64,000 bases of DNA from an uncultured archaeon. GTDB lineage: Archaea > Asgardarchaeota > Lokiarchaeia > Sigyniarchaeales > SOKP01. Shown here piece by piece: positions 32,165-62,727 of the stretch. How positions within the stretch are numbered: position 1 is the first letter of the stretch; each line of letters starts with the position of its first letter. A program made the translations under genes and the position numbers. The notes under the pieces are model-generated. The model was not told where the DNA came from. It was given only the letters and a program-made list of their open reading frames with translations, and searched no databases. The stretch lies in assembly GCA_964508365.1 (NCBI GenBank), contig CAZDTP010000005.1:32001-96000 (forward strand). Reading direction: 5' to 3'.

Positions 32165-33529
32165 TTATAAACGAGTTATATATCTATTTCGCTCCCATTC
32201 AGACACTACAAGTTTATAAGCGTCGTTTTCTTCTAATTTCGCATAATAAAAGTTTTTGAACGGTTGTTCCCCGAAGATTTCTTTCATGTATTCAGAATTT
32301 CTAAATTCTTTCAGCGCTTCCATTAAACTTCCAGGGAGAGAATTGATTCCTTCCTTCTCCATTTCTTTCGATGTCAGATGATACACATTTCTATCAGTAG
32401 GTTCGTAGAGTTCAATGTCATCAGATAAAATTCCATATAAACCGGTACTTAATAGAACAGCGAACTGTAGATAAGGATTACCCGCGGGATCTGGGCAACG
32501 AATCTCGCACCTAGCAGCAGTTCTCTTGCCATGGAAGTCTGGAACTCTGATTAATGGTGATCTATTCCGGAATCCCCATGCTATATATACCGGAGCTTCA
32601 TACCCAGGTACTAATCGCTTATACGAGTTTGGCCAACTGCTTAATACTGCACACATAGCTTTCGCATATGTCAGCTGACCAGCAATCCACTTTTTCATTA
32701 ATAAAGATATATGTGCTGGGTCTGATTCATCATAAAATACGTTTTTACCTTCTTTCCATAGGCTCTGATGACAGTGCATCCCAGATCCGTTTATCCCATC
32801 AAAAGGTTTAGGCATAAAAGTTGCCGTCATATTATTCTGAGCAGCCACAGTCTTTATAATTGCTTTTATCGTAATTGTATTGTCCGCACTTTCAACTGCT
32901 TTGTCGTAGCGAAAATCAACTTCGTGCTGACCAAAAGCTACCTCGTGATGAAGCGCTTCGATTTCAATTCCCATTTTATCACAGTATTCTGCAATCGTGT
33001 AGCGCATACGTTCATTAATATCATATGGATCATAATCAAAATATCCTCTCATATCAGAAGGTTTAAAAGCAGCCTGGCTATTTTCTTGGTCCAATATAAA
33101 AAACTCCATTTCTGGAGCACAAACATAATCAAATCCATGCTTTCTTGCTTTTTTTACAGCCTTCTGTAGAATATAGCGAGGATCTCCATCGTATCTCTCC
33201 CCACTTGGAGTATAAATATCGCAGATTGCTCTGGCTACTCTGTTATTTGTCGCATTGTTTCGCCAAGGTAATATATAAAAAGTACTAGGATCAGGCAATG
33301 CAACCTTATCGGATTCCTCGATTGCCCCATACCCCGTTATAGAACTCCCATCAAAATTCTCGCCTATTTCAAAACATTCCTCTATTCGTTTTGAGTTAAT
33401 TTCAAAGGATTTAATTATCCCATGAATATCGGTAAATTGAAGGTATATAAACTTAATGTCCTCCTCTTTAACCCGCTCGATTACGTCTTCACATAATCCC
33501 TTCCTATTTGGATCTCCCTTTTCAATCAT
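32165..33529 (-). CDS. glnA: Glutamine synthetase type I
   Basis: FDGSSI, HHEVAFGQHE, FMPKP..GINGSGMH, NSYKRLVPGYEAP, RCPDPAGNPYL. Confidence 0.95.
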   Translation of the reverse strand: MIEKGDPNRKGLCEDVIERVKEEDIKFIYLQFTDIHGIIKSFEINSKRIEECFEIGENFDGSSITGYGAIEESDKVALPDPSTFYILPWRNNATNNRVARAICDIYTPSGERYDGDPRYILQKAVKKARKHGFDYVCAPEMEFFILDQENSQAAFKPSDMRGYFDYDPYDINERMRYTIAEYCDKMGIEIEALHHEVAFGQHEVDFRYDKAVESADNTITIKAIIKTVAAQNNMTATFMPKPFDGINGSGMHCHQSLWKEGKNVFYDESDPAHISLLMKKWIAGQLTYAKAMCAVLSSWPNSYKRLVPGYEAPVYIAWGFRNRSPLIRVPDFHGKRTAARCEIRCPDPAGNPYLQFAVLLSTGLYGILSDDIELYEPTDRNVYHLTSKEMEKEGINSLPGSLMEALKEFRNSEYMKEIFGEQPFKNFYYAKLEENDAYKLVVSEWERNRYITRL

Positions 33530-33612
33530 TTTTTATCTCATCTTAATTTATTCAGTAAAATCTAAAGATTTACATTTTGGTTAGATTATATAAATCAAAG
33601 TTCTATAATTAT

Positions 33613-33981
33613 TCATTCATAGATTAACAAATAATTTTTTTCTTTTTCGAAGATTTTTGATTCAATATTTGGTAAATTTTTGATAGTTTTTAATTGAGAA
33701 ATTCCATATTTTAAATTGAAGAAATTTCTAAATTTAAGACTCGAATTACAGTTCCAGATAAACTCCTCTTTTGGTTTAAAATCAGAAAATTTAGGTTCAG
33801 AAGCGATCTTAATGTAAAATTCATCTGGTTTTTGATGACCAAATGCAGTTGTTTGTTCATAATGAGAGTAAGTGTAGTTCTCGGGGATATTTATGCTATC
33901 AATTGATTTATCTTCACATGTGTGGCATATTTTTCTGTCGTAATAATATTCCTTTCCGCAAATTGGGCATTTTAATGACAT
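33613..33981 (-). CDS. Zn-finger protein upstream of glnA (paralog of 43395-43622)
   Basis: KCPICGKEYYYDRKICHTC ... WNCNSS. Confidence 0.7.
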   Translation of the reverse strand: MSLKCPICGKEYYYDRKICHTCEDKSIDSINIPENYTYSHYEQTTAFGHQKPDEFYIKIASEPKFSDFKPKEEFIWNCNSSLKFRNFFNLKYGISQLKTIKNLPNIESKIFEKEKNYLLIYE

Positions 33982-34017: not shown

Positions 34018-34032
34018 AGGGATTAATTCCCT
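34018..34032. promoter_or_regulatory. Inverted repeat AGGGA-N5-TCCCT, candidate operator of the Zn-finger/glnA unit
   Basis: agggattaattccct, 37-51 bp upstream of the ATG at 33981, in the divergent region shared with the Lrp gene. Confidence 0.35.
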
Positions 34033-34271: not shown

Positions 34272-34766
34272 ATGACGGAACAATCTAGCCTTGACAACAT
34301 TGACGATTTAGATTTTGAGATCTTAAAGAAATTGAGCGCTGACGGTAGGATTTCCCTTCGACAGCTTGCAAATGATTTAGGAAAAAAATCGCCTGTAACG
34401 ATTAAAAATCATGTTGAGAAATTGGAGAACAATGGTATTATCACGAGTTATGGAGTTCAAATTGACTACGAAAAATTGGGATATGAAATTATTGCGCTTA
34501 TCGAAATAACAGTTTCCAAAGGTAAACTGCTTGAAGTTGAAAAGAAGATTGCCCATAATCCAAATGTTTTCGCTGTATACGATATTACTGGAACGTATGA
34601 TGCACTTATTCTTGCACGATTTAAAACGAGGGCAAAGCTCAGTGAAATGATAAAAGGCGAGCTTCTTGCTTCTCCTTTTGTTGAGCGAACAAATACTCAT
34701 TTAGTCTTAAACGTGATTAAGGAACGTAGTTCGTTTAATGAGTTAATGAAGAAAAAAGAGAATTAG
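34272..34766 (+). CDS. Lrp/AsnC family transcriptional regulator
   Basis: LDFEILKKLSADGRISLRQLA HTH; VYDITGTYDAL RAM domain. Confidence 0.93.
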   Translation: MTEQSSLDNIDDLDFEILKKLSADGRISLRQLANDLGKKSPVTIKNHVEKLENNGIITSYGVQIDYEKLGYEIIALIEITVSKGKLLEVEKKIAHNPNVFAVYDITGTYDALILARFKTRAKLSEMIKGELLASPFVERTNTHLVLNVIKERSSFNELMKKKEN

Positions 34767-42642: not shown

Positions 42643-43019
42643 GTGTTCCTTCTTGTTTTATAAGTTGTGTAAAATTCTCTAATAATACATTGGTTTTTGT
42701 CAATTTAAATATATTTCTCATTTCTAGAGTAGACTCTTCAAGAAATTTTTTAGTAATACGCTATTAAATTCTCAGTTTTTTGTCGGTACGCGTTTTTTTG
42801 TGGTTAAAAATTTTTTAGCGCAAAACAATAAGTTTATAAGCAAGAAGAGCTAATTCTAAACAAAAAATGAAAATCTCGAACATAAAATGAACAAATTTTA
42901 AGAAAAATAACGAGACAAAAGACTTAAAAGGCTACAAACCTTACTAAATTTAAAATATTTTCATTTGAGGGAAAAGATTCCCATAAAAAAATTAAAAAAA
43001 AATTGGATGTGAATTATGA

Positions 43020-43274
43020 ATGATGTTGGAAGAAATAGAAAAAAGCCCTGAGGCTGCAATAATTGCAGTAAACGAAGTATTTAAGACATACGAGCTAATG
43101 TGTTTGGATAAGTTAAAGGAAATTGGAAGATCAACAGCTCGAGAATGGTCTTTCGCAATGGGCTACACACATCGTTCTTCACTTGCGAAAATCATACGAA
43201 GAATCACAGAGAGATACCCTGAGATGATTAAAATCTATGATAACCAGTTTCCTCGACTTTACGAAGCAATATAA
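43020..43274 (+). CDS. Small helical protein, possibly winged-HTH
   Basis: CLDKLKEIGRSTAREWSFAMGY..RSSLAKIIRRI...PRLYEA. Confidence 0.55.
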   Translation: MMLEEIEKSPEAAIIAVNEVFKTYELMCLDKLKEIGRSTAREWSFAMGYTHRSSLAKIIRRITERYPEMIKIYDNQFPRLYEAI

Positions 43275-43394: not shown

Positions 43395-43622
43395 ATGATA
43401 ATAAAGTGTAAAGATTGTGGAATAGAGTACTCATATAGCCGAAATATTTGTCATATGTGTGGAGGTAATACATTATTCTTTGGTGCAATTTTTGAAGAGG
43501 AATTATCAGAACGCAATTGGAACTGTGTTTCAAGTGCTCAATGTATTGAGATTTTATTAGAAAAACATGAATTACCTGAATCAATTATTGAAGTATTTCC
43601 TGAAAATAGGAGGGAGCTGTGA
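43395..43622 (+). CDS. Zn-finger protein upstream of glutamate synthase (paralog of 33613-33981)
   Basis: KCKDCGIEYSYSRNICHMC ... WNCVSS. Confidence 0.7.
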   Translation: MIIKCKDCGIEYSYSRNICHMCGGNTLFFGAIFEEELSERNWNCVSSAQCIEILLEKHELPESIIEVFPENRREL

Positions 43623-43628
43623 TATAGA

Positions 43629-45278
43629 ATGACAAAATTTTCTATGACAACACACCAGACAAGCATGATTGGTTCAAGGACAAGGGTTGAAGATTCTTGC
43701 GAGTCTGGATTATGTCCAATATGCATTGCAGATTGTCCTGTGTTCTGCGAAGTTTCGAAATCAGCATTAAGAGGTCGCGAAGCGTTATATCCTCGAAGAG
43801 AATATTTTGGAAACTCAACTGCGGGAACACCAAAAGATTTTGGGTTAGCCTATGGTGATTTCCAAATTCAATTTGAAGTGCGAGGCGCTCAAGGGATCGA
43901 AGCTCATGAAGACAAGGTGATTTTTCCAAATGTGGATATGACGATGCGTTGGGGTAACATACAGCAAAAATTACCTATCGTGATTGCTGGACTTGGCAGT
44001 ACGTACGTAGCTAAACGAAATTGGGAAGGTTTAGCAATTGGCGCTGCTTTAGCAGGTGTAAGTCTTACAATTGGAGAAAATGTAGTTGGAATGGATCAAT
44101 TTGCTCAATTCGCAAATCACAGCGTTTATCCCAAAGTAACTGATACAGATGATATGAAATTTCGTGTTAACACCTATCGAGATTTTTGGGATGGAAAGCA
44201 TGGTGATATTATTGTACAGAAAAATGTTGAAGACACTAGGCTTGGAGTATTCGATTATGTAATGTCAAAATTGGATATAGAATCACTTGAGTTGAAATTC
44301 GGTCAAGGAGCAAAAGCAATCGGTGGGGAAGTAAGGTTATCATCTTTAGAAAGAGCACAATTACTTCAAGAACGAGGCTATTTAGTCTTTCCTGATCCCT
44401 CAGATCCAATGGTTGTAGATCAATGGAACGCTGGGTTAATACCTGATTTTGAGAGGCATAGCAGAGTAGGATTGTCCACGACTGAAGATGTTTTAGAAGA
44501 AATAGATCAAGTTCGCTCATCAGGAGCAAAAAATATATTTATTAAAACTGGAGCCTATCGTCCAGCGGCAACAGCATGGCTATTAAGGTTAGCAGTGGAA
44601 GGAAAGGTAGATGGAATAACATTTGATGGTGCTGGAGGAGGAACAGGGATGAGTCCAGTGAGTATGATGAATGAAGGGTCAATTCCAACCGTTTATTTAG
44701 AAGCTCTTGTAGTTGGATGTTTGGATATGATAAAGAAGAAGAACCCTAATGTTAATATTCCAACCGTAGCCATCGCGGGAGGAATCGCAAACGAGACGCA
44801 GATGTTCAAAGCTCTTGCCATGGGTGCCCCCTATGTGAAGTGTATCGCCATGGCAAGAGCTCCGCTTACAGCTGCTATGAAATCTAAGTATGTTGGTGAA
44901 ATAATATCAAAAGGAATGGTCACTCCAGCAATGCTGAAGAACTTAGGATTTCCTAGAGATAAGGATCCTTCAAGTTTAAGCCTTAATGAAGCTTTCGTAG
45001 AATACGATAAATTGCAGAGGACTTACGAAGGAAAAGAAATTCCTCCCTCCGCAGTGGGAGTTTATACATATTTTGAAAGTAAGCTCGGTATAGGTCTAAA
45101 ACAACTATTAGCTGGGGTTAGAAAATTTAATTTGGACCTTTTAGATCGTCATGATATCGCTTACATTTCTCAACGAGCTAAAGATGTATGCAATAAATGG
45201 GATTTGCAAATTGAGTCTCAAGAGTCTCTTGATTTTGAATTGGTAAAGAACGAGATATATTCGGGTAACTACGAATAA
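43629..45278 (+). CDS. FMN-binding glutamate synthase family protein (stand-alone archaeal GltB FMN domain with N-terminal Fe-S motif)
   Basis: CPICIADCPVFC, ELKFGQGAKAIGG, FDGAGGGTG, IAGG, ALAMGA. Confidence 0.85.
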   Translation: MTKFSMTTHQTSMIGSRTRVEDSCESGLCPICIADCPVFCEVSKSALRGREALYPRREYFGNSTAGTPKDFGLAYGDFQIQFEVRGAQGIEAHEDKVIFPNVDMTMRWGNIQQKLPIVIAGLGSTYVAKRNWEGLAIGAALAGVSLTIGENVVGMDQFAQFANHSVYPKVTDTDDMKFRVNTYRDFWDGKHGDIIVQKNVEDTRLGVFDYVMSKLDIESLELKFGQGAKAIGGEVRLSSLERAQLLQERGYLVFPDPSDPMVVDQWNAGLIPDFERHSRVGLSTTEDVLEEIDQVRSSGAKNIFIKTGAYRPAATAWLLRLAVEGKVDGITFDGAGGGTGMSPVSMMNEGSIPTVYLEALVVGCLDMIKKKNPNVNIPTVAIAGGIANETQMFKALAMGAPYVKCIAMARAPLTAAMKSKYVGEIISKGMVTPAMLKNLGFPRDKDPSSLSLNEAFVEYDKLQRTYEGKEIPPSAVGVYTYFESKLGIGLKQLLAGVRKFNLDLLDRHDIAYISQRAKDVCNKWDLQIESQESLDFELVKNEIYSGNYE

Positions 45279-45375: not shown

Positions 45376-47175
45376 TTAATTCATTGCTTTTTCAAATTCG
45401 TTAACAAATGCTTCATATTGGTTTATCCCTAACTCCCAGAAATCTTTTTTTGTGATATCTAATCCAACTATCTCACCTAAATCTTCTGGAGATAAACTAC
45501 CGCCAGCCGCCAACAATTTCTTAAATTTAGGAACAAAGGCTTTACCCTCTTTTTTATAAGTCTGATACAACGCATATACAAAAAGCTGAGCGTAAACATA
45601 GGGATAATTATAGAATCGAAAATTCGGGAAAAAGTAATGCGGTTTCATTGTCCATTCCCAGTCCATCTCTTCGAACCATTCAACAGAATTTCCGTAAATC
45701 TTATCTCTTCCAGCGCACCAGTATTTTGAAATCGTTTTACCATCTAAATTTTCACCATTTTCAATAGCTTTATACAAATCTTGTTCAAACCACACCCTCG
45801 CGCTTACTTGAAATACTGCTTGTCCTGCGTCGTCTAAAACATGTGCTAAAATAGCTAATTTTTCTTCCTTAGAGTTAGCCTTTTCGAGGAGGAGATCTGT
45901 CATTAATAACTCTCCAAAAGTGGATGCTGTTTCTGCAACTGTGTAACCTGGAAATGTGTTAAAGTACGTTTGTTCATCAATCGCTAGATAATTGTGTATA
46001 GCGTGGCCAAGTTCATGCATTAATGTAAATATTTCAGTCAATTCTCCAGTATAGGTCATGAGAATATAAGAGGATTTCCCTTTAAACCAAGAAGCGCAGT
46101 TTGCTCCATTCCGTTTTCCCTCCCGTGGACTTGCATCGATATGATTTCGATTAAACATATCACGTACAATCTCTACACATTCTGAATCGAATTTTTCATA
46201 TGCTTGAATTACTAATTCTATTGCATCATCCCAGGAATGCTTTGTATGTGGAACATTAGGCAGTGGAGCTCTGATATCCGCGCAATTTAATTTAGGAAGG
46301 TTCAAAACATCAGTTTTAAGTTTTAAATATCTACGGTACACACCTACACCCTTCTCAATAGCTTTCATCAAATTATCGATAATCTCTTGCCTTGTATCAT
46401 TAGCTAAGAGACTATGGTGCATTGGACTATCGTACTTGCGCCTTTTAGAATTATTTACCCAATCTCCACATATACTTCTTAATGCTAAAGAAAATACTGT
46501 TTCCTCTTTCCCTAGTAAGCCATAAATCGATTTATTTGCTGATATTCGGGTCCCTCTATCTGGGTGAGTAAGTAATGCGTTAGCTTCCCCATACGATAAT
46601 TCTTTATCTTCACCTTCGACATTTACTGTGAATTTTCTTGTATTCAACCACTTAGACTGCAAGGTACTCCATGCTCTTACTCCATATTGATCCTTTTCAA
46701 GAATTAGTTGTTCTTCTAATTCGGTTAGATTATGAGGAAACTTTCTTTTAATATTTTCTAAAATATGTTGATACTTCAATAAAATGGGATCATCTACTAA
46801 AACTGGATTATCATTGACTAACTTCGCTACATCGAGTTCTAAAAAAGCTAAGTCCTTAGATATTTTAGTCGTGAAATCTTCAACTTTGTTTTTTAAAGCT
46901 TCACTCTCAGGAACAGTCATTTTTGCACTATATAGCCTATTCTGATAGAGGTCAATTTCGCTTATATCGGCTTGAAATTTCTCTTGTCTCTTGAATAAAT
47001 CTAACAAGTTTTGTGGAGTAAAGCTAGCAGAAGTAATCTTTCCTTTGTAATCGTTTATAATATTTTCTGTTTCTTTTTTAAGGCTGTTCAATATTTCAGC
47101 TATTTTGGGATCATTATGACTTGCAAAGATTTCAGTTAAATCCCATGCAATTTCATTTTCGGTCATAATAAACAA
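45376..47175 (-). CDS. pepF: Oligoendopeptidase F (M3B)
   Basis: WDLTEIF, PREGKRNGA, HELGH, AETASTFGE, FYNYPY; ATG 47166 is an alternative start. Confidence 0.9.
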   Translation of the reverse strand: MFIMTENEIAWDLTEIFASHNDPKIAEILNSLKKETENIINDYKGKITSASFTPQNLLDLFKRQEKFQADISEIDLYQNRLYSAKMTVPESEALKNKVEDFTTKISKDLAFLELDVAKLVNDNPVLVDDPILLKYQHILENIKRKFPHNLTELEEQLILEKDQYGVRAWSTLQSKWLNTRKFTVNVEGEDKELSYGEANALLTHPDRGTRISANKSIYGLLGKEETVFSLALRSICGDWVNNSKRRKYDSPMHHSLLANDTRQEIIDNLMKAIEKGVGVYRRYLKLKTDVLNLPKLNCADIRAPLPNVPHTKHSWDDAIELVIQAYEKFDSECVEIVRDMFNRNHIDASPREGKRNGANCASWFKGKSSYILMTYTGELTEIFTLMHELGHAIHNYLAIDEQTYFNTFPGYTVAETASTFGELLMTDLLLEKANSKEEKLAILAHVLDDAGQAVFQVSARVWFEQDLYKAIENGENLDGKTISKYWCAGRDKIYGNSVEWFEEMDWEWTMKPHYFFPNFRFYNYPYVYAQLFVYALYQTYKKEGKAFVPKFKKLLAAGGSLSPEDLGEIVGLDITKKDFWELGINQYEAFVNEFEKAMN

Positions 47176-47254: not shown

Positions 47255-48814
47255 CTACTCATATTCAATTGTGCTTGGTGGCTTGTTAGAAATATCATAC
47301 ACGACGCGATTAATTCCCTTTACTTCGTTTATGATGCGAGTGCCAATTTTTTCTAGTAATTCCCAATCTAGCTTGGCAAAGTTGGCAGTCATAGCGTCTA
47401 AGGACTCGACAACTCGTATAGCACAAATGTATTCATAGGTACGATAATCTCCCATAATTCCTACGGTTTTTAAAGGTAAAAATACGCAAAATGCTTGCCA
47501 AAGATTATCGTAAACTTTAGCTTTCCTGACCTCGTCGATTAAAATCTCGTCAGCGTCTCTTAGGATGTCTAGTTTTTTCTTTTCAATTGGACCAATTATT
47601 CTTACTGCCAATCCAGGACCCGGAAAAGGATGCCGTAAAACAATACTTTCAGGTAACCCTAATTGTATTCCGATTTTTCTTACCTCATCTTTATATAGCT
47701 CTTTCAGTGGCTCTATAATTTTTAACGTCATATCATCTGGTAAAGTTAAATTATGGTGAGATTTAATTTTTACTGATGCACTGCTCGTAGCGCTCGTTTC
47801 TACTCGATCAGGGTAAATAGTTCCCTGAGCTAAATATTTAATATCTGGATAAGCCTTTTCTAATTCGATTGTTTTTTTTTCAAAAACCTCAATAAAAGTG
47901 TGACCGATAATCCGCCTTTTTTCTTCAGGATCATCAATGTTTTTTAACCTTTCTAAAAATAAACCTTCGGCGTTAACATAATGGAAATTTTCAAATTTTA
48001 ACTCTTGTTTAAATGTTTTTTGGACTTGAATTTCCTCGTTTTTCCTTAGTACCCCATTGTTTACAAAAATACTATGCAACCTGTTTCCAATGGCTTTTTG
48101 AAATAGTGCTGCTACAACAGAAGAATCTACTCCTCCGCTTAGACCTAATATAACTCTGTTTTTCAGTCCAACTTCTTTCTTAATATTTTCAATTGACTTT
48201 TCTATCCAATTCTCTAAGTTCCATTCTTTTTTGGCGTGAACAATTTTCTCAATAAAATTTTTCAAAATCTTCGTGCCTTTTTGGGTGTGTACTACTTCAG
48301 GGTGAAATTGAACGCCATACAATTTTAAATCTTCATTTGCATAAACTGCTATTGGACATGTAGCTGTTCTGGCTAATATTTCAAAGCCTTGTGGCATTAT
48401 TTCTACTTGATCTCCATGGGACATCCATACAGTTTCCTTTTCATTTAGTGAATCTAATAATTTCCCCGGTTTCAGGATTTCCAATTCAGTTTTTCCATAT
48501 TCTTTTTTAGCATATGGTTTAATTTTACCCCCTAATTGATGGATGATTAAGTGTAAACCATAACAGATTCCTAAAACTGGAATTTTGTCATTTTTTATAA
48601 ACTTAAAGAAATCGTCTGTGAGATGGGGGCTACCATCCTCATATACACTACTTGGTCCTCCTGAAAGAATTATCCCTATTGGTTTATACTCCCTTAGCTT
48701 TTCAATTGCAATGTTATTTGGTAAAATCTCAGAATATACTCCTAGTTCTCTAATACGTCTAGCTATTAAATGAGAATATTGAGATCCCATGTCAATAATA
48801 CAAATTTTATCCAT
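47255..48814 (-). CDS. guaA: GMP synthase, fused GATase plus ATPPase
   Basis: GSQYSHLIARRIRE, GICYG, QFHPEV, SGGVDS, IKSHHN, HPFPGPGLAVR, KPPSTIEYE. Confidence 0.96.
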   Translation of the reverse strand: MDKICIIDMGSQYSHLIARRIRELGVYSEILPNNIAIEKLREYKPIGIILSGGPSSVYEDGSPHLTDDFFKFIKNDKIPVLGICYGLHLIIHQLGGKIKPYAKKEYGKTELEILKPGKLLDSLNEKETVWMSHGDQVEIMPQGFEILARTATCPIAVYANEDLKLYGVQFHPEVVHTQKGTKILKNFIEKIVHAKKEWNLENWIEKSIENIKKEVGLKNRVILGLSGGVDSSVVAALFQKAIGNRLHSIFVNNGVLRKNEEIQVQKTFKQELKFENFHYVNAEGLFLERLKNIDDPEEKRRIIGHTFIEVFEKKTIELEKAYPDIKYLAQGTIYPDRVETSATSSASVKIKSHHNLTLPDDMTLKIIEPLKELYKDEVRKIGIQLGLPESIVLRHPFPGPGLAVRIIGPIEKKKLDILRDADEILIDEVRKAKVYDNLWQAFCVFLPLKTVGIMGDYRTYEYICAIRVVESLDAMTANFAKLDWELLEKIGTRIINEVKGINRVVYDISNKPPSTIEYE

Positions 48815-49159: not shown

Positions 49160-50410
49160 ATGATAATAAACCCCTATGAGAGTGCTAAAAAGAAAATTGA
49201 TATAGCAGCAGAATTAATTAATTTACACCCGAATACTTTAGAATATCTCAAAAAGACGGAAAGAGCGCTCGTTGTTTCTATCCCAGTAATGATGGATGAT
49301 GGTTCTCTCGAAATTTTTGAAGGATTCAGAGTTCATCATTCTACTTTACTAGGTCCAGGAAAAGGAGGTGTAAGATTTTCTCCCTTTGTGACTCTTGACG
49401 AGATGAAAGCTTTAGCCCTTTTGATGACATTTAAGACAGCTTTATTAGGGTTACCTCTTGGTGGTTCTAAAGGTGGTATAAGAGTCGATACTAAAAAGTT
49501 ATCAGAGAGAGAATTAGAGAATTTAACGAGAAGATACACCATGGAAATTATAAATATGATTGGACCTGATAGAGATGTTGCCGCACCAGATATGTATACA
49601 GACTCGCGTATAATGGCTTGGATGATGGATACTTATAGTATGCAAAAAGGTCGAACTATTCCTGGAGTAGTTACTGGTAAACCAATTGAGATTGGAGGCT
49701 CTATAGGAAGGACTGAAGCTCCTGGTACAGGAATGATTTATTTACTACAGCATTTATGTCAAAAATTAAATTATAATTTGAAAAAAATGAGTGTTGCAAT
49801 TCAAGGTTTTGGAAAAGTGGGATCTGTTGTTGCCAAGCAATTATGTAACAACTCCTGCAATGTTATAGCAATCTCTGAAGAAGAAGGAGGAATTTATTCA
49901 CCAGATGGTTTAGATATAGACACATTAATCAAATGGAAACTACAAGGTAATTTATTAAAAGAATATGAGGGTAAAAATACAAGCCCAATAACTAATGATA
50001 AATTATTAAGCACTGAATGTGATGTTTTAATTCCTGCTGCTGTTGAAAATCAGATTTATAGCAAAAATGCAGATAAGATAGATTGTAAAATAATATTAGA
50101 AGGAGCAAATAGTCCAACAACTTCCCAAGCAGATAAAATCTTGGAGGAAAAAGAAATAATAGTTGTTCCAGATATTCTTGCAAATAGTGGAGGAGTTTGT
50201 GTATCTTATTTTGAATATATTCAAGATATGCAGAGTTATTTCTGGAAGTTAGATCGCGTTAATCAAGAAATGAAATCGATTCTTATAGATACATTTGAGA
50301 AAATATTTGAATTTTCAAAAAAAACGGATTCATCACTCAGAACGGCAGCATATGCTATTAGCGCAAATCGATTAGCAAAAGCACATGAATTGAGAGGGTT
50401 ATTTCCATAA
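49160..50410 (+). CDS. gdhA: Glutamate dehydrogenase paralog 1 (some motifs diverged)
   Basis: GPGKGG, GGSKGG, QGFGKVG, EGANSP, PDILANSGGV. Confidence 0.85.
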   Translation: MIINPYESAKKKIDIAAELINLHPNTLEYLKKTERALVVSIPVMMDDGSLEIFEGFRVHHSTLLGPGKGGVRFSPFVTLDEMKALALLMTFKTALLGLPLGGSKGGIRVDTKKLSERELENLTRRYTMEIINMIGPDRDVAAPDMYTDSRIMAWMMDTYSMQKGRTIPGVVTGKPIEIGGSIGRTEAPGTGMIYLLQHLCQKLNYNLKKMSVAIQGFGKVGSVVAKQLCNNSCNVIAISEEEGGIYSPDGLDIDTLIKWKLQGNLLKEYEGKNTSPITNDKLLSTECDVLIPAAVENQIYSKNADKIDCKIILEGANSPTTSQADKILEEKEIIVVPDILANSGGVCVSYFEYIQDMQSYFWKLDRVNQEMKSILIDTFEKIFEFSKKTDSSLRTAAYAISANRLAKAHELRGLFP

Positions 50411-50505: not shown

Positions 50506-51756
50506 ATGGCCGTCAATCCTTTTGAAATGGCAAAAAAACAGATTGATATTGTAGCAGAAGTGCTGGATTTAGATCCAAATATTCATAAGTTTTTAAAAAG
50601 AGTAGAACGTTCTTTAATAGTTTCTATTCCAATTATGATGGATGATGGTACTGTAAAAATTTTTGAAGGTTATAGGGTTCATCATTCTACAATCAGAGGA
50701 CCTGGGAAAGGTGGTTTACGATATTCTTTAGGTGTTAATCTTGATGAAGTTAAAGCTTTAGCAACATGGATGACATGGAAAACTAGTCTTTTAAACTTGC
50801 CTTTAGGGGGTTCTAAAGGAGGTATATGCGTTGATCCTTTTAAATTGTCTAAAAAAGAGCTAGAAAGACTTACAAGAAGGTTTACTGCTGAAATTATTAA
50901 TATCATAGGACCAGATATTGATATTCCCGCTCCAGATGTAAATACTAACCCACAAATTATGGCTTGGATAATGGATACATATAGCATGCAAAAAGGACGA
51001 ACGATTACTGGCGTTGTAACTGGAAAACCCGTTGAAATTGGCGGTTCTGTTGGCAGAGCAGATGCTACCGGAATGGGCTTGTATTTTGTACTCCAAGCTA
51101 TGGCTGAAAAACTTAGATTAGAATTAAAGTCCTTAAAGATTGTAGTTCAAGGATTCGGTAATGTAGGAGGTACGATTGCTAATCTACTTTATAAACACGG
51201 ATGTAAAGTTATTGCCGTCTCCGATATTTCAACGGGCATTTGCTGCGAAGATGGTTTAGATGTAGAAAAATTATTAGATTGGGCTAAACAAGGTAATTTA
51301 TTTAAAGATTATAAAAACGAGAATTATAAACTTATTGGTAACGACGAGTTACTTACATTAAAATGCGATGTATTAATCCCGGCAGCTATAGAAAATCAAA
51401 TAACAGAAAAAAATGCGGAGAAAATAAACTGCAAAATAGTTTTAGAAGGTGCAAATGGTCCTACAACACCAGAAGCGGATAAAGTTTTGTTTAAGAAAGA
51501 AATTTATGTTGTACCAGATATTCTCGCCAATAGTGGTGGGGTTTGCGTATCGTACTTCGAATATGTCCAAGATATTAATTCGTACTTCTGGAAACTTGAT
51601 CGTATTAATGAAGAACTTAAAAGAATCATAATTGAAGCATTTGAAGAAACATATAAAATCTCAGAAGAGAAAAAGATACCCCTTCGGACAGCAGCTTACA
51701 TAATAGCGGTATCAAGAATTGCAAAAGCAATTGAATTGAGAGGAATCTTTCCTTAA
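50506..51756 (+). CDS. gdhA: Glutamate dehydrogenase paralog 2 (canonical motifs)
   Basis: RGPGKGG, WMTWK, PAPDVNT, GRADATG, QGFGNVG, EGANGP. Confidence 0.93.
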   Translation: MAVNPFEMAKKQIDIVAEVLDLDPNIHKFLKRVERSLIVSIPIMMDDGTVKIFEGYRVHHSTIRGPGKGGLRYSLGVNLDEVKALATWMTWKTSLLNLPLGGSKGGICVDPFKLSKKELERLTRRFTAEIINIIGPDIDIPAPDVNTNPQIMAWIMDTYSMQKGRTITGVVTGKPVEIGGSVGRADATGMGLYFVLQAMAEKLRLELKSLKIVVQGFGNVGGTIANLLYKHGCKVIAVSDISTGICCEDGLDVEKLLDWAKQGNLFKDYKNENYKLIGNDELLTLKCDVLIPAAIENQITEKNAEKINCKIVLEGANGPTTPEADKVLFKKEIYVVPDILANSGGVCVSYFEYVQDINSYFWKLDRINEELKRIIIEAFEETYKISEEKKIPLRTAAYIIAVSRIAKAIELRGIFP

Positions 51757-62070: not shown

Positions 62071-62727
62071 ATGTCAAATCACGATAGCACTCCGAAGTTC
62101 CCTGACTCTTATCTTGGGAATAATTCCCTAGACTATGATTCATCAATATGGATGGAGAGAAATCAAAAAAAAACTACACTCCTTTGTTTACAATATTTGT
62201 ATGATGAAAGATTAGATAATCTAGAGAAACCGGATTTTTTAAAAGATGAATCTTTTTTCATTATTGATTTAGGCTGTGGAACTGGTTTTTCCACTGAGAT
62301 TTTAATAGAGAGAGGTTTTAGAGTAGTTGGAGTCGATGTCTTACACGACATGCTTTCAAAAGTGAAACCTAAGAAGAATCATATGAACAATCAAAACAAC
62401 CTCGAGCTCATTTTAGCAGATATAAACTATATACCCTTAAGAGGTTCCTCAATTAATCACGCAATTTCTATCTCAGCCTACAATTTCATCACCCATAGAG
62501 CAGAGTCGATTCGAGACAAAACGAAAATTACAAATAATACCGCAGAATATTTGTATAAAATATTAAAACCAGATGGAAGAATTATAATCGAATTTTACCC
62601 TAAAGACGAAAATGAGCTGGAAATGTTTACTTCATCATTTAACAATAATGGGTTTAATGGGTTTGTCATCAAACAGAATCCTAATCAAAAATCAGGACAG
62701 ACTTTCTTATTGCTAAAAAAGCGGTGA
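62071..62727 (+). CDS. Class I SAM methyltransferase, Bud23/WBSCR22-like
   Basis: IDLGCGTGFS, VGVDV..DML, IPLRGSSINHAISISA, EFYPKDENE. Confidence 0.75.
   Translation: MSNHDSTPKFPDSYLGNNSLDYDSSIWMERNQKKTTLLCLQYLYDERLDNLEKPDFLKDESFFIIDLGCGTGFSTEILIERGFRVVGVDVLHDMLSKVKPKKNHMNNQNNLELILADINYIPLRGSSINHAISISAYNFITHRAESIRDKTKITNNTAEYLYKILKPDGRIIIEFYPKDENELEMFTSSFNNNGFNGFVIKQNPNQKSGQTFLLLKKR

What the first reader, a model, noticed from the sequence alone, without database searches (positions are those of the whole stretch)
33613..33981. The same Zn-finger family leads both glnA and glutamate synthase: candidate Asgard nitrogen-control system
The genes immediately upstream of glnA (33613-33981) and of the glutamate synthase gene (43395-43622) share KC-x2-CG-x-EY-x-Y-x-R-x-ICH-x-C and a later WNC-x-SS. 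Their spacers differ in length and several codons differ synonymously (TGC/TGT), so conservation is at protein level (seen). Two unlinked halves of the GS/GOGAT cycle each carrying a copy is unlikely by chance. It suggests a dedicated regulator, leader protein or enzyme modulator that I cannot assign to known nitrogen regulators (NrpR, GlnK/PII, GlnR/TnrA) (inference). The second copy is in frame with the synthase, separated by TGA plus two codons.
Basis: partly seen in the sequence, partly recalled or inferred. Interest (0 to 1): 0.78.

Follow-up and report, generated by a model that had tools for sequence, protein, structure and literature searches.

The report
Zinc-ribbon proteins heading Asgard nitrogen genes
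Two small zinc-binding proteins encoded just in front of glutamine synthetase and of a glutamate-synthase-like gene belong to an undescribed family, confined to one group of uncultured Asgard archaea, whose copies sit almost only beside ammonium and glutamate enzymes and Lrp-type regulators; they are probably regulatory partners in an unknown nitrogen-control system.

Summary
P0001 (33613-33981, minus strand) lies 83 nt upstream of glnA. P0002 (43395-43622, plus strand) lies 6 nt upstream of a 549-aa GltB-like gene. They are true paralogs (profile-profile 98.4%, E 4.7e-15).

Three corrections:
- P0002's WNC aligns with a first WNC that P0001 has lost.
- The in-frame TGA is not conserved.
- The 'glutamate synthase' has only a partial FMN-domain match, and this genome has no canonical GOGAT.

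In relatives, subfamilies precede glnA (about 30 loci), the true split GOGAT operon, the GltB-like gene and carbamate kinase, and lie in glutamate dehydrogenase clusters. In five fully enumerated genomes, 15 of 20 copies lie within five genes of such enzymes.

Copies also lie next to Lrp/AsnC or 84-aa HTH-like genes. In six genomes the zinc module is fused to a complete Lrp. A GGGA-N5-6-TCCC box precedes the units. Most copies end in hydrophobic-hydrophobic-Y/F-Glu. This genome lacks PII, NrpR and Amt.

Best reading (0.45): Lrp-linked co-regulators or adaptors. Binding is not shown.

The family matches no Pfam or PDB family, and I found no paper on it. The scan noted the same family in three other genomes.

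The parts
33613..33981 (-). P0001: 122-aa zinc-ribbon protein, glnA-type subfamily. It has an N-terminal CPxCG...CHxC knuckle, conserved SEPKF and WNC motifs, and ends in LLIYE.
   Evidence: (only residues 1-25 are predicted folded; the rest is disordered)
32165..33529 (-). glnA: type I glutamine synthetase, 83 nt downstream of P0001.
   Evidence: TIGR00653 489.8 bits against a cut-off of 429; Pfam Gln-synt_C and Gln-synt_N. The same gene order holds in about 30 loci of relatives.
34272..34766 (+). P0065: Lrp/AsnC-family regulator, transcribed divergently from P0001-glnA.
   Evidence: Pfam HTH_24 plus AsnC_trans_reg. Its best NCBIfam match is the haloarchaeal Lrp model, 113.6 bits, below the 190-bit cut-off. 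It is conserved as the divergent neighbour in most glnA-type loci.
34019..34031 (.). Palindromic box GGGAATTAATCCC (read on the minus strand), ending 37 nt before the P0001 start codon and downstream of an AT-rich TATA-like stretch.
   Evidence: A GGGA-N5-6-TCCC box at -37 to -52 lies upstream of 12 of 30 glnA-type zinc-ribbon genes, and a 13th has one at -111. None lies directly upstream of glnA.
42969..42982 (.). Second box, GGGAAAAGATTCCC, ending 37 nt before the start of the 84-aa gene.
   Evidence: A box is present upstream of 12 of 13 relatives' 84-aa genes that have enough sequence.
43020..43274 (+). 84-aa conserved protein, first gene of the unit. It is HTH-like, but that is a lead only.
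   Evidence: No Pfam, NCBIfam or PDB match. Language-model look-alikes are small winged-helix families (DUF7123, FaeA, HTH_5; scores 0.86-0.90). Four of 10 members give weak HTH_18 hits. It precedes the zinc-ribbon gene in GltB-like and GOGAT units.
43395..43622 (+). P0002: 75-aa zinc-ribbon protein, short subfamily. It has the knuckle plus FGAIF...WNC and the tail IIEVFPE, and no terminal Y-E.
   Evidence: A GGAGG lies inside its 3' end, about 15 nt before the next start codon.
43629..45278 (+). P0004: 549-aa GltB-like FMN protein with a Cys-rich N-terminus. It is not a canonical glutamate synthase.
   Evidence: Pfam Glu_synthase at 54 bits, partial. No NCBIfam equivalog. No PDB relative at E 1e-3. 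The genome has no GXGXG domain and no GOGAT amidotransferase or FMN-subunit homologue.

Best explanation
P0001 and P0002 are paralogs of an undescribed small-protein family. Its common part is a module of about 50 residues: a C-x2-C ... (C/H)-x-C zinc knuckle followed by G-hydrophobic-hydrophobic ... W-N-C. After it comes a fast-evolving, largely disordered tail that differs between subfamilies and usually ends in hydrophobic-hydrophobic-Tyr/Phe-Glu.

Shown: each subfamily is encoded at the head of one operon of the ammonium/glutamate node. The operons are glnA, the split GOGAT operon, the GltB-like gene, carbamate kinase, and glutamate dehydrogenase clusters with a two-component system. Each copy lies beside a DNA-binding regulator gene (Lrp/AsnC or the 84-aa HTH-like gene), and the units carry a common palindromic box.

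Inferred: the zinc module works together with the Lrp-type regulator as a co-regulator or anti-regulator. The paralog-specific tail gives each operon its own input, possibly by touching the enzyme it is made with. The result would be feedback control of nitrogen assimilation in archaea that lack PII and NrpR.
For: Homology and reality of the genes.

Context:
- About 30 loci have the order zinc gene then glnA, with gaps of -8 to 100 nt.
- Other subfamilies precede the true GOGAT operon, whose genes carry CCG/Fer4, GATase_2, Glu_synthase (425 bits) and GXGXG domains.
- Others precede the GltB-like gene and carbamate kinase (TIGR00746, 363 bits), or lie in clusters of GDH, histidine kinase, response regulator and RR-Lrp fusion.
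- 51 of 64 copies lie within five genes of such enzymes, and 15 of 20 in fully enumerated genomes.

Link to regulators:
- In six genomes the module is fused directly to a complete Lrp/AsnC protein (197 aa). Its Lrp part folds confidently. One database representative, P0088, has the same fusion.
- 46 of 64 copies lie within two genes of an Lrp or 84-aa gene, or are fused to an Lrp.
- In sister genus g7, lrp and glnA are a divergent pair with no zinc gene between them. The same pairing occurs in haloarchaea, where Lrp activates glnA (PMC2894021, PMC8229911).

Shared GGGA-N5-6-TCCC box ahead of the first gene of the units.

Precedent: Brz, a small zinc-finger protein encoded directly upstream of bop and required for bop transcription (PMC2253796).

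Missing known regulators: PII, NrpR and Amt are absent from this 100%-complete genome. PII was found in 0 of 41 genomes of the genus.
Against: No binding of any kind is shown. All support is gene context plus one fusion class.
- The zinc module is predicted with low confidence both alone and in the fusion, so there is no structural support for a module-Lrp interface.
- Tight operon coupling with the enzyme gene and one paralog per enzyme fit a direct enzyme partner at least as well.
- The fused class lacks the Y-E tail and is not next to an enzyme gene, so it may work differently from P0001.
- 13 of 64 copies are near none of these enzymes; some of these lie beside PfkB-like/radical SAM, metallo-beta-lactamase or MFS genes.
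- The box is missing upstream of more than half of the glnA-type genes.
- The sample of loci is not random, and the genomes come from two related genera.
Confidence: 0.45

Rival explanations
1. Direct enzyme modulators. Each paralog binds the enzyme it is co-translated with (GS, GOGAT, GltB-like protein, carbamate kinase) through its disordered, subfamily-specific tail. It would tune activity or assembly, as sP26 and GlnK1 do for Methanosarcina GS or IF7/IF17 for cyanobacterial GS, with no role in transcription.
For: There is one paralog per enzyme, each with its own conserved tail motifs. Operon coupling is tight: gaps of -8 to 100 nt, and a GGAGG inside P0002's 3' end. Predicted disorder with conserved short motifs is typical of proteins that fold on a partner. 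The enzymes all act on or make glutamate, glutamine or ammonia, and the terminal Glu is nearly invariant. Precedents: 10.1101/2020.05.06.080432 and PMC10651883.
Against: This does not explain the fusion to Lrp, the steady pairing with regulator genes, or the 84-aa/zinc gene pairs kept where the GltB-like gene is absent (L046, L049). P0002 and the GDH-cluster copies lack the Glu tail.
Confidence: 0.25
2. Autonomous DNA-binding regulators. The zinc module itself recognises the GGGA-N5-6-TCCC box and autoregulates the operon it heads.
For: The gene sits first in the unit, directly behind the box. Small archaeal zinc-finger proteins can regulate adjacent genes (PMC2253796). Tandem two-module proteins exist and could match a two-armed palindrome.
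Against: In GOGAT and GltB-like units the box precedes the 84-aa gene, and an Lrp is nearly always nearby, so better DNA-binding candidates exist. The module is acidic to neutral in many copies, and no nucleic-acid-binding family matches beyond generic knuckles.
Confidence: 0.1
3. Glutamate-tailed carrier or pseudo-substrate. The free C-terminal Glu is acted on or bound as a glutamate mimic by GS, GOGAT and related enzymes, in the manner of the LysW amino-group carrier.
For: The combination of a zinc ribbon and a nearly invariant C-terminal Glu recalls LysW. Only 5 of 3,748 gene calls in this genome end in that motif, and 2 of those are family members. The neighbouring enzymes act on glutamate or its amide.
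Against: There is no significant similarity to LysW (E 1.7 and 0.33). No ATP-grasp LysX-type ligase appears in any neighbourhood annotated. A carrier would be one protein serving all enzymes, not one paralog per enzyme. P0002 has no terminal Glu. GS needs the free alpha-amino group of glutamate (established enzymology).
Confidence: 0.05
4. Proteasome adaptors. The hydrophobic-Tyr-X C-terminus is an HbYX motif that docks on the 20S proteasome and delivers the neighbouring enzyme for degradation.
For: The C-terminal L-I-Y-E fits the Hb-Y-X pattern.
Against: In HbYX motifs the last residue is free to vary, whereas here Glu is nearly invariant. Phe replaces Tyr in several copies. No proteasome genes lie nearby. 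P0002 lacks the motif.
Confidence: 0.05

Closest known systems
Brz of Halobacterium salinarum and the loose class of small CPxCG zinc-finger proteins of archaea (PMC2253796)
   Same: It is a small protein with a CPxCG-type knuckle, encoded directly upstream of and co-oriented with the gene it controls. It works together with a larger regulator encoded nearby.
   Different: No sequence relationship was tested or is claimed. The present family has its own WNC motif, Glu tail, tandem forms and Lrp-fused forms. It is tied to nitrogen enzymes, not to bacteriorhodopsin.
Haloarchaeal lrp-glnA pair (PMC2894021, PMC8229911)
   Same: An Lrp/AsnC regulator is encoded next to glnA in the opposite orientation. 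P0065's best NCBIfam match is the haloarchaeal Lrp model. Genus g7 of the same family has the plain pair.
   Different: Here a zinc-ribbon gene lies between lrp and glnA and heads the glnA unit. P0065 scores below that model's cut-off.
PII/GlnK network with its adaptor PipX, and Bacillus GS-TnrA/GlnR
   Same: The logic would be the same: a small protein links nitrogen enzymes (GS, an amino-acid-kinase-fold enzyme) to a transcription factor. The set of neighbouring genes resembles PII's set of targets. The zinc family is commonest in the genera where PII is rare.
   Different: There is no homology (no P-II domain). There is one paralog per operon rather than one hub protein. Where PII exists in genus g12 it lies in the same loci, so the two are not mutually exclusive. 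The inverse pattern rests on a few related genera.
Small-protein GS modulators: sP26 and GlnK1 of Methanosarcina mazei (10.1101/2020.05.06.080432, PMC10651883), IF7/IF17 of cyanobacteria
   Same: These are small, partly disordered proteins dedicated to GS.
   Different: They are not encoded as the first gene of the glnA operon, have no zinc ribbon, and have no paralogs for other enzymes.
LysW amino-group carrier protein
   Same: It is a small zinc-ribbon protein ending in Glu.
   Different: There is no significant sequence match, no LysX-type ligase nearby, and the tail here is hydrophobic-Tyr-Glu rather than the acidic EDWGE.

Membership tests
Small CPxCG zinc-finger regulators (Brz-like class) | Small protein with a pair of CPxCG-like metal-binding knuckles | tested here: met
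   P0001 has C-P-I-C-G ... C-H-T-C and P0002 has C-K-D-C-G ... C-H-M-C. Across 30 modules, C5, C8 and C22 are invariant, and every module but L004's has C19 or H20.
Small CPxCG zinc-finger regulators (Brz-like class) | Required for transcription of the adjacent gene | not testable with these tools
   Only the position (directly upstream, same strand) is shown.
LysW amino-group carrier | Sequence similarity to LysW | tested here: not met
   A profile of the module searched against PDB gives LysW chains at E 1.7 and 0.33, not significant. Pfam and NCBIfam give no LysW model.
LysW amino-group carrier | Adjacent ATP-grasp ligase (LysX/ArgX) and a C-terminal Glu | tested here: not met
   The terminal Glu is present in P0001 and most copies but not in P0002. 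No ATP-grasp gene is among the neighbours annotated.
HbYX proteasome ligands | C-terminal hydrophobic-Tyr-X with a variable last residue; binds 20S alpha-ring pockets | tested here: inconclusive
   The pattern is present (LIYE), but the last residue is nearly invariant Glu and Tyr is sometimes Phe. Binding is not testable here.
PII (GlnB/GlnK) | P-II domain (PF00543) | tested here: not met
   No P-II match in P0001 or P0002. No P-II gene anywhere in the genome.
Type I glutamine synthetase (the gene after P0001) | Score above the cut-off of the GlnA equivalog model | tested here: met
   TIGR00653 at 489.8 bits against a cut-off of 429.15.
Glutamate synthase / GOGAT (the gene after P0002) | Full FMN domain plus amidotransferase and GXGXG parts | tested here: not met
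   The Glu_synthase match is 54 bits over residues 283-404 only. No GXGXG domain in the genome. tblastn with GOGAT subunits of relatives found no amidotransferase, FMN or GXGXG homologue at E 1e-10.
Lrp/AsnC regulators (P0065 and the 197-aa fusions) | N-terminal HTH plus C-terminal AsnC/RAM ligand-binding domain | tested here: met
   Pfam HTH_24/HTH_AsnC plus AsnC_trans_reg. The fusions match Lrp models over residues 48-195, and that part has pLDDT 75-90.

The most novel reading that the evidence does not exclude
A PII-independent nitrogen-control system built from paralogous 'glutamate-tailed' zinc-ribbon adaptors. Each paralog would insert its invariant free C-terminal Glu, preceded by an aromatic residue, into a glutamate site of the enzyme it is co-produced with, while its zinc module docks on an Lrp-type regulator. 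Occupancy of GS, GOGAT, GDH and carbamate kinase by their real substrates would then be reported directly to transcription.
Probability: 0.12. Interest if true: 0.85.

Novelty: new variant of a known kind. Interest (0 to 1): 0.64.

Why it matters
How Asgard archaea, the closest known prokaryotic relatives of eukaryotes, sense and control nitrogen is unknown. This genome, estimated 100% complete, has no PII, NrpR, Amt or canonical GOGAT. PII was found in none of the 41 genomes of its genus.

A lineage-specific protein family marks nearly every operon of the ammonium/glutamate node, is paired with Lrp-type regulators, and shares an operator-like box with them. That yields a concrete, testable candidate regulon with named parts: the Lrp, the zinc protein, the 84-aa protein, the box and the enzyme. 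It could reveal a new way of coupling enzyme state to transcription.

It also adds a clear functional context for small zinc-finger proteins, which are abundant in archaea and mostly uncharacterised.

Tried and rejected
- Complex prediction of two GlnA chains with P0001 residues 36-122 gave no answer (score 0.00, controls not run). It counts neither for nor against binding.
- Structure prediction of P0001 with 41 relatives gave mean pLDDT 56. Only the knuckle is ordered.
- Structure prediction of the Lrp fusion gave pLDDT 34-48 for the zinc module. I therefore ran no fold searches, since low-confidence models give meaningless matches.
- Pfam, NCBIfam, a PDB profile search and the ESM Atlas found no family for P0001 or P0002 beyond generic zinc knuckles.
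- Rfam found no known RNA element between 31000 and 46000.
- TGA read-through joining P0002 to P0004 is rejected, because the in-frame spacing is not conserved.
- The box does not define a regulon genome-wide. Of 58 GGGA-N5-6-TCCC sites (about 15 expected from base composition), only 9 are intergenic, which is about the share of non-coding DNA. The site at 62116 lies inside a methyltransferase ORF.
- Weak phmmer hits turned out unrelated: C1:40318 is spurious, and C28 and C1:77948 are DUF35-type zinc ribbons.
- A 98-aa ORF on C105 ending in IYE looks by eye like a nucleotidyltransferase-type protein; it has no Cys knuckle or WNC motif.
- The search for related loci with the module alignment failed for lack of a conserved stretch. 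With the glnA-type alignment it returned mostly Asgard MAGs plus two weak bacterial MAG hits covering only the knuckle, and no cultured strain.
- Literature searches for Asgard or Lokiarchaeal nitrogen regulators found nothing relevant.

Full report
THE OBSERVATION

P0001 (window 33613-33981, minus strand, 122 aa) and P0002 (43395-43622, plus strand, 75 aa) are real ORFs. P0001 lies 83 nt upstream of a type I glutamine synthetase gene on the same strand (TIGR00653, 490 bits, above the cut-off). P0002 lies 6 nt upstream of a 549-aa gene carrying a partial Glu_synthase FMN domain.

The two N-termini share 13 of 27 residues (pairwise E 4e-8). They find each other in a phmmer search of all 16,919 ORFs of the genome. 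Profiles of their orthologue sets align over 71 columns at 98.4% probability, E 4.7e-15. Their Cys codons differ, so this is protein-level conservation.

Both have orthologues: 52 and 10 clusters in a 5.8-billion-protein collection, all 'hypothetical' and from Asgard MAGs apart from one record labelled as bacterial. Both evolve under purifying but relaxed selection, with dN/dS 0.09-0.65 against 0.03 for glnA.

CORRECTIONS TO THE OBSERVATION

- The longer glnA-type relatives (about 130 aa) carry two WNC motifs. P0002's WNC aligns with the first. P0001 and its closest kin have lost the first and keep only the second.
- The in-frame TGA between P0002 and the next gene is not conserved. The gaps in six relatives are 1, 19, 19, 19, 29 and 59 nt.
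- The '549-aa glutamate synthase' is not a canonical GOGAT. It scores 54 bits over residues 283-404, against 425 bits for a true FMN subunit. It has no NCBIfam equivalog and no PDB relative. The genome, 100% complete by marker genes, has no GXGXG domain and no GOGAT amidotransferase or FMN-subunit homologue.

THE FAMILY

- The common part is a module of about 50 residues. C5, C8, C22 and W42 are invariant; N43 and C44 are nearly so. Every module but L004's has C19 or H20.
- A profile search of 1.84 billion representative proteins found about 95 true members. All are 44-197 aa. The only larger architectures are a tandem double module and a fusion to Lrp.
- Among 399 genomes of the phylum, 124 match. 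Of these, 104 are in the window's own family: 38 of 41 genomes in genus g1 and 48 of 54 in g12. There are up to 7 copies per genome. Matches outside that family are weak.
- Named records are mostly Asgard MAGs labelled Promethearchaeia or Promethearchaeota, with two weak bacterial MAG hits covering only the knuckle and no cultured strain.
- This genome has three copies. The third is at C12:67849-68076, beside PfkB-like, radical SAM and FGase genes.

GENE CONTEXT

I fetched 61 loci from relatives and clustered their genes. The subfamilies sort by their downstream gene:

(a) Copies of 117-147 aa precede glnA in about 30 loci, with gaps of -8 to 100 nt. An Lrp/AsnC gene is transcribed divergently in most of them.
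(b) Copies of 71-108 aa (165 aa for one tandem form) precede the GltB-like gene, and are themselves preceded by a conserved 84-aa gene.
(c) Copies of 66-170 aa, some with tandem modules, precede the true split GOGAT operon. Its genes carry CCG/Fer4, GATase_2, Glu_synthase and GXGXG domains.
(d) Copies of 62-84 aa, or a 197-aa form in which the module is fused to a complete Lrp/AsnC protein, lie in clusters with a histidine kinase, a response regulator, an RR-Lrp fusion and, in most of these loci, a glutamate dehydrogenase within five genes.
(e) The remaining copies lie beside carbamate kinase (TIGR00746, 363 bits), PfkB-like/radical SAM, metallo-beta-lactamase or MFS genes.

Overall, 51 of 64 distinct copies lie within five genes of a GS, GOGAT, GltB-like or GDH gene. 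46 of 64 lie within two genes of an Lrp or 84-aa gene, or are fused to an Lrp. That sample is biased towards the best-scoring matches. I therefore enumerated every copy in five genomes, and 15 of 20 are near these enzymes. By my rough estimate, such neighbourhoods make up about 1% of a genome.

REGULATORY SIGNALS

- A palindromic box, GGGA-N5-6-TCCC, ends 37 nt before the start of P0001 and 37 nt before the start of the 84-aa gene that heads the P0002 unit.
- I tested the lead across relatives. The box is present upstream of 13 of 30 glnA-type zinc genes and 12 of 13 84-aa genes, and never directly upstream of glnA. I estimate about 5e-4 per 130-nt region by chance.
- The zinc gene or the 84-aa gene is therefore the first gene of each unit, and the units probably share one regulator.
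- The box's shape, 13-14 bp with an AT-rich centre, is typical of Lrp-family sites. That is my own knowledge, not tested here.
- Genome-wide the box does not define a regulon.
- P0065's best NCBIfam match is the haloarchaeal Lrp model; in haloarchaea an Lrp is encoded next to glnA and activates it (PMC2894021, PMC8229911).
- In sister genus g7, lrp and glnA form the plain divergent pair with no zinc gene between them. This suggests (inference) that the zinc gene was added to an existing lrp-glnA pair in this lineage.

THE TAIL

- P0001 is predicted to be disordered after residue 25. Even so, it keeps conserved short motifs: E-P at 62-63, W-N at 76-77, and Y-E at the very end.
- Most stand-alone copies end in hydrophobic-hydrophobic-Y/F-E.
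- In this genome only 5 of 3,748 gene calls end that way, and 2 of those are family members.
- P0002's subfamily and the Lrp-fused forms lack the tail.

KNOWN NITROGEN REGULATORS

The genome has no PII, NrpR or Amt. Across the phylum PII is rare: 37 of 399 genomes, 0 of 41 in g1 and 6 of 54 in g12. Where PII does occur in g12, it lies in these same loci. Related genomes are not independent, so the inverse pattern is only suggestive.

MECHANISM

What is shown is context. There is a dedicated paralog at the head of each ammonium/glutamate operon, next to a regulator gene and behind a shared box, and one natural fusion to Lrp.

The fusion and the steady pairing with regulator genes are the only evidence that distinguishes between models. 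They point to the zinc module working with Lrp-type regulators. I therefore rank 'co-regulator or adaptor of Lrp-type control' first, at 0.45.

The one-paralog-per-enzyme pattern, the operon coupling, the disorder and the Glu tail fit a direct enzyme partner nearly as well (0.25). The two readings can be combined into an adaptor in the style of PipX, or of GS with TnrA. Autonomous DNA binding (0.1), a LysW-like carrier or pseudo-substrate (0.05) and an HbYX proteasome adaptor (0.05) are less likely, for the reasons given under rival explanations.

COMPARISON AND NOVELTY

The closest known case is Brz, a small CPxCG zinc-finger protein encoded directly upstream of the gene it regulates (PMC2253796). 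The lrp-glnA pairing is known from haloarchaea. No family, structure or paper covers these proteins.

The kind of thing is known: a small zinc-finger regulator of adjacent genes, or a small protein dedicated to nitrogen enzymes. The family, its Glu tail, its fusion to Lrp and its coverage of the whole ammonium/glutamate node are new.

The scan has noted the same family in three other genomes, with similar follow-up conclusions. I re-tested the claims of theirs that I use.

Noticed in passing
whole genome G000 (window = C5:32001-96000): The genome, 100% complete by marker genes, has no PII, no NrpR (NRD1_2 domain), no Amt ammonium transporter and no canonical GOGAT. Two glutamate dehydrogenase genes and one GS are the visible ammonium entry points.
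   Followed up: partly
window 49160-50410 and 50506-51756 (+): Two tandem 416-aa glutamate dehydrogenase paralogs lie about 4 kb downstream of the P0002 unit. GMP synthase (47255-48814, minus strand) and an M3 peptidase (45376-47175, minus strand) lie between. The window is rich in nitrogen-metabolism genes.
   Followed up: partly
G000 C12:67849-68076 (L001:7850-8077): This is the third family copy of this genome, 75 aa and ending in LLIYE. It lies beside a PfkB-like kinase, a radical SAM protein, an acyl-CoA dehydrogenase and an N-formylglutamate amidohydrolase-family gene. Part of this neighbourhood (PfkB-like and radical SAM genes) recurs in two other genomes (L050, L056), and the FGase-family gene in L050. 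The pathway is unknown.
   Followed up: partly
L032-L037, L052, L054, L058, L059 (relatives): A conserved cluster holds a histidine kinase, a response regulator and a response-regulator-Lrp fusion (Response_reg plus HTH_AsnC plus AsnC_trans_reg, 225-311 aa), with a glutamate dehydrogenase in most of the fetched loci. Phosphorylation-controlled Lrp proteins would be unusual.
   Followed up: no
L046, L049 (relatives): The 84-aa gene and the zinc-ribbon gene are kept as a pair, box included, in genomes where the GltB-like gene that normally follows is absent. The pair therefore seems to be the conserved unit.
   Followed up: no
L038, L039, L041, L060 (relatives): In the tandem two-module proteins (164-170 aa), the first module resembles the glnA-type N-terminus and the second the P0002 type. 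This hints that modules of different paralogs act together.
   Followed up: no
window 43629-45278 (+): P0004 is a 549-aa protein with a Cys-rich N-terminus (C-x5-C-x2-C-x3-C-x3-C) and a distant GltB FMN-domain core. It is conserved in relatives, always behind a zinc-ribbon gene. Its function is unknown, and it is not a GOGAT subunit by the tests run.
   Followed up: partly
window 33530-33612: The 83-nt spacer between P0001 and glnA holds a TATA-like TTTATATAA and a small palindrome AAATCT-TT-AGATTT, so glnA may also have its own promoter. Conservation was not checked.
   Followed up: no
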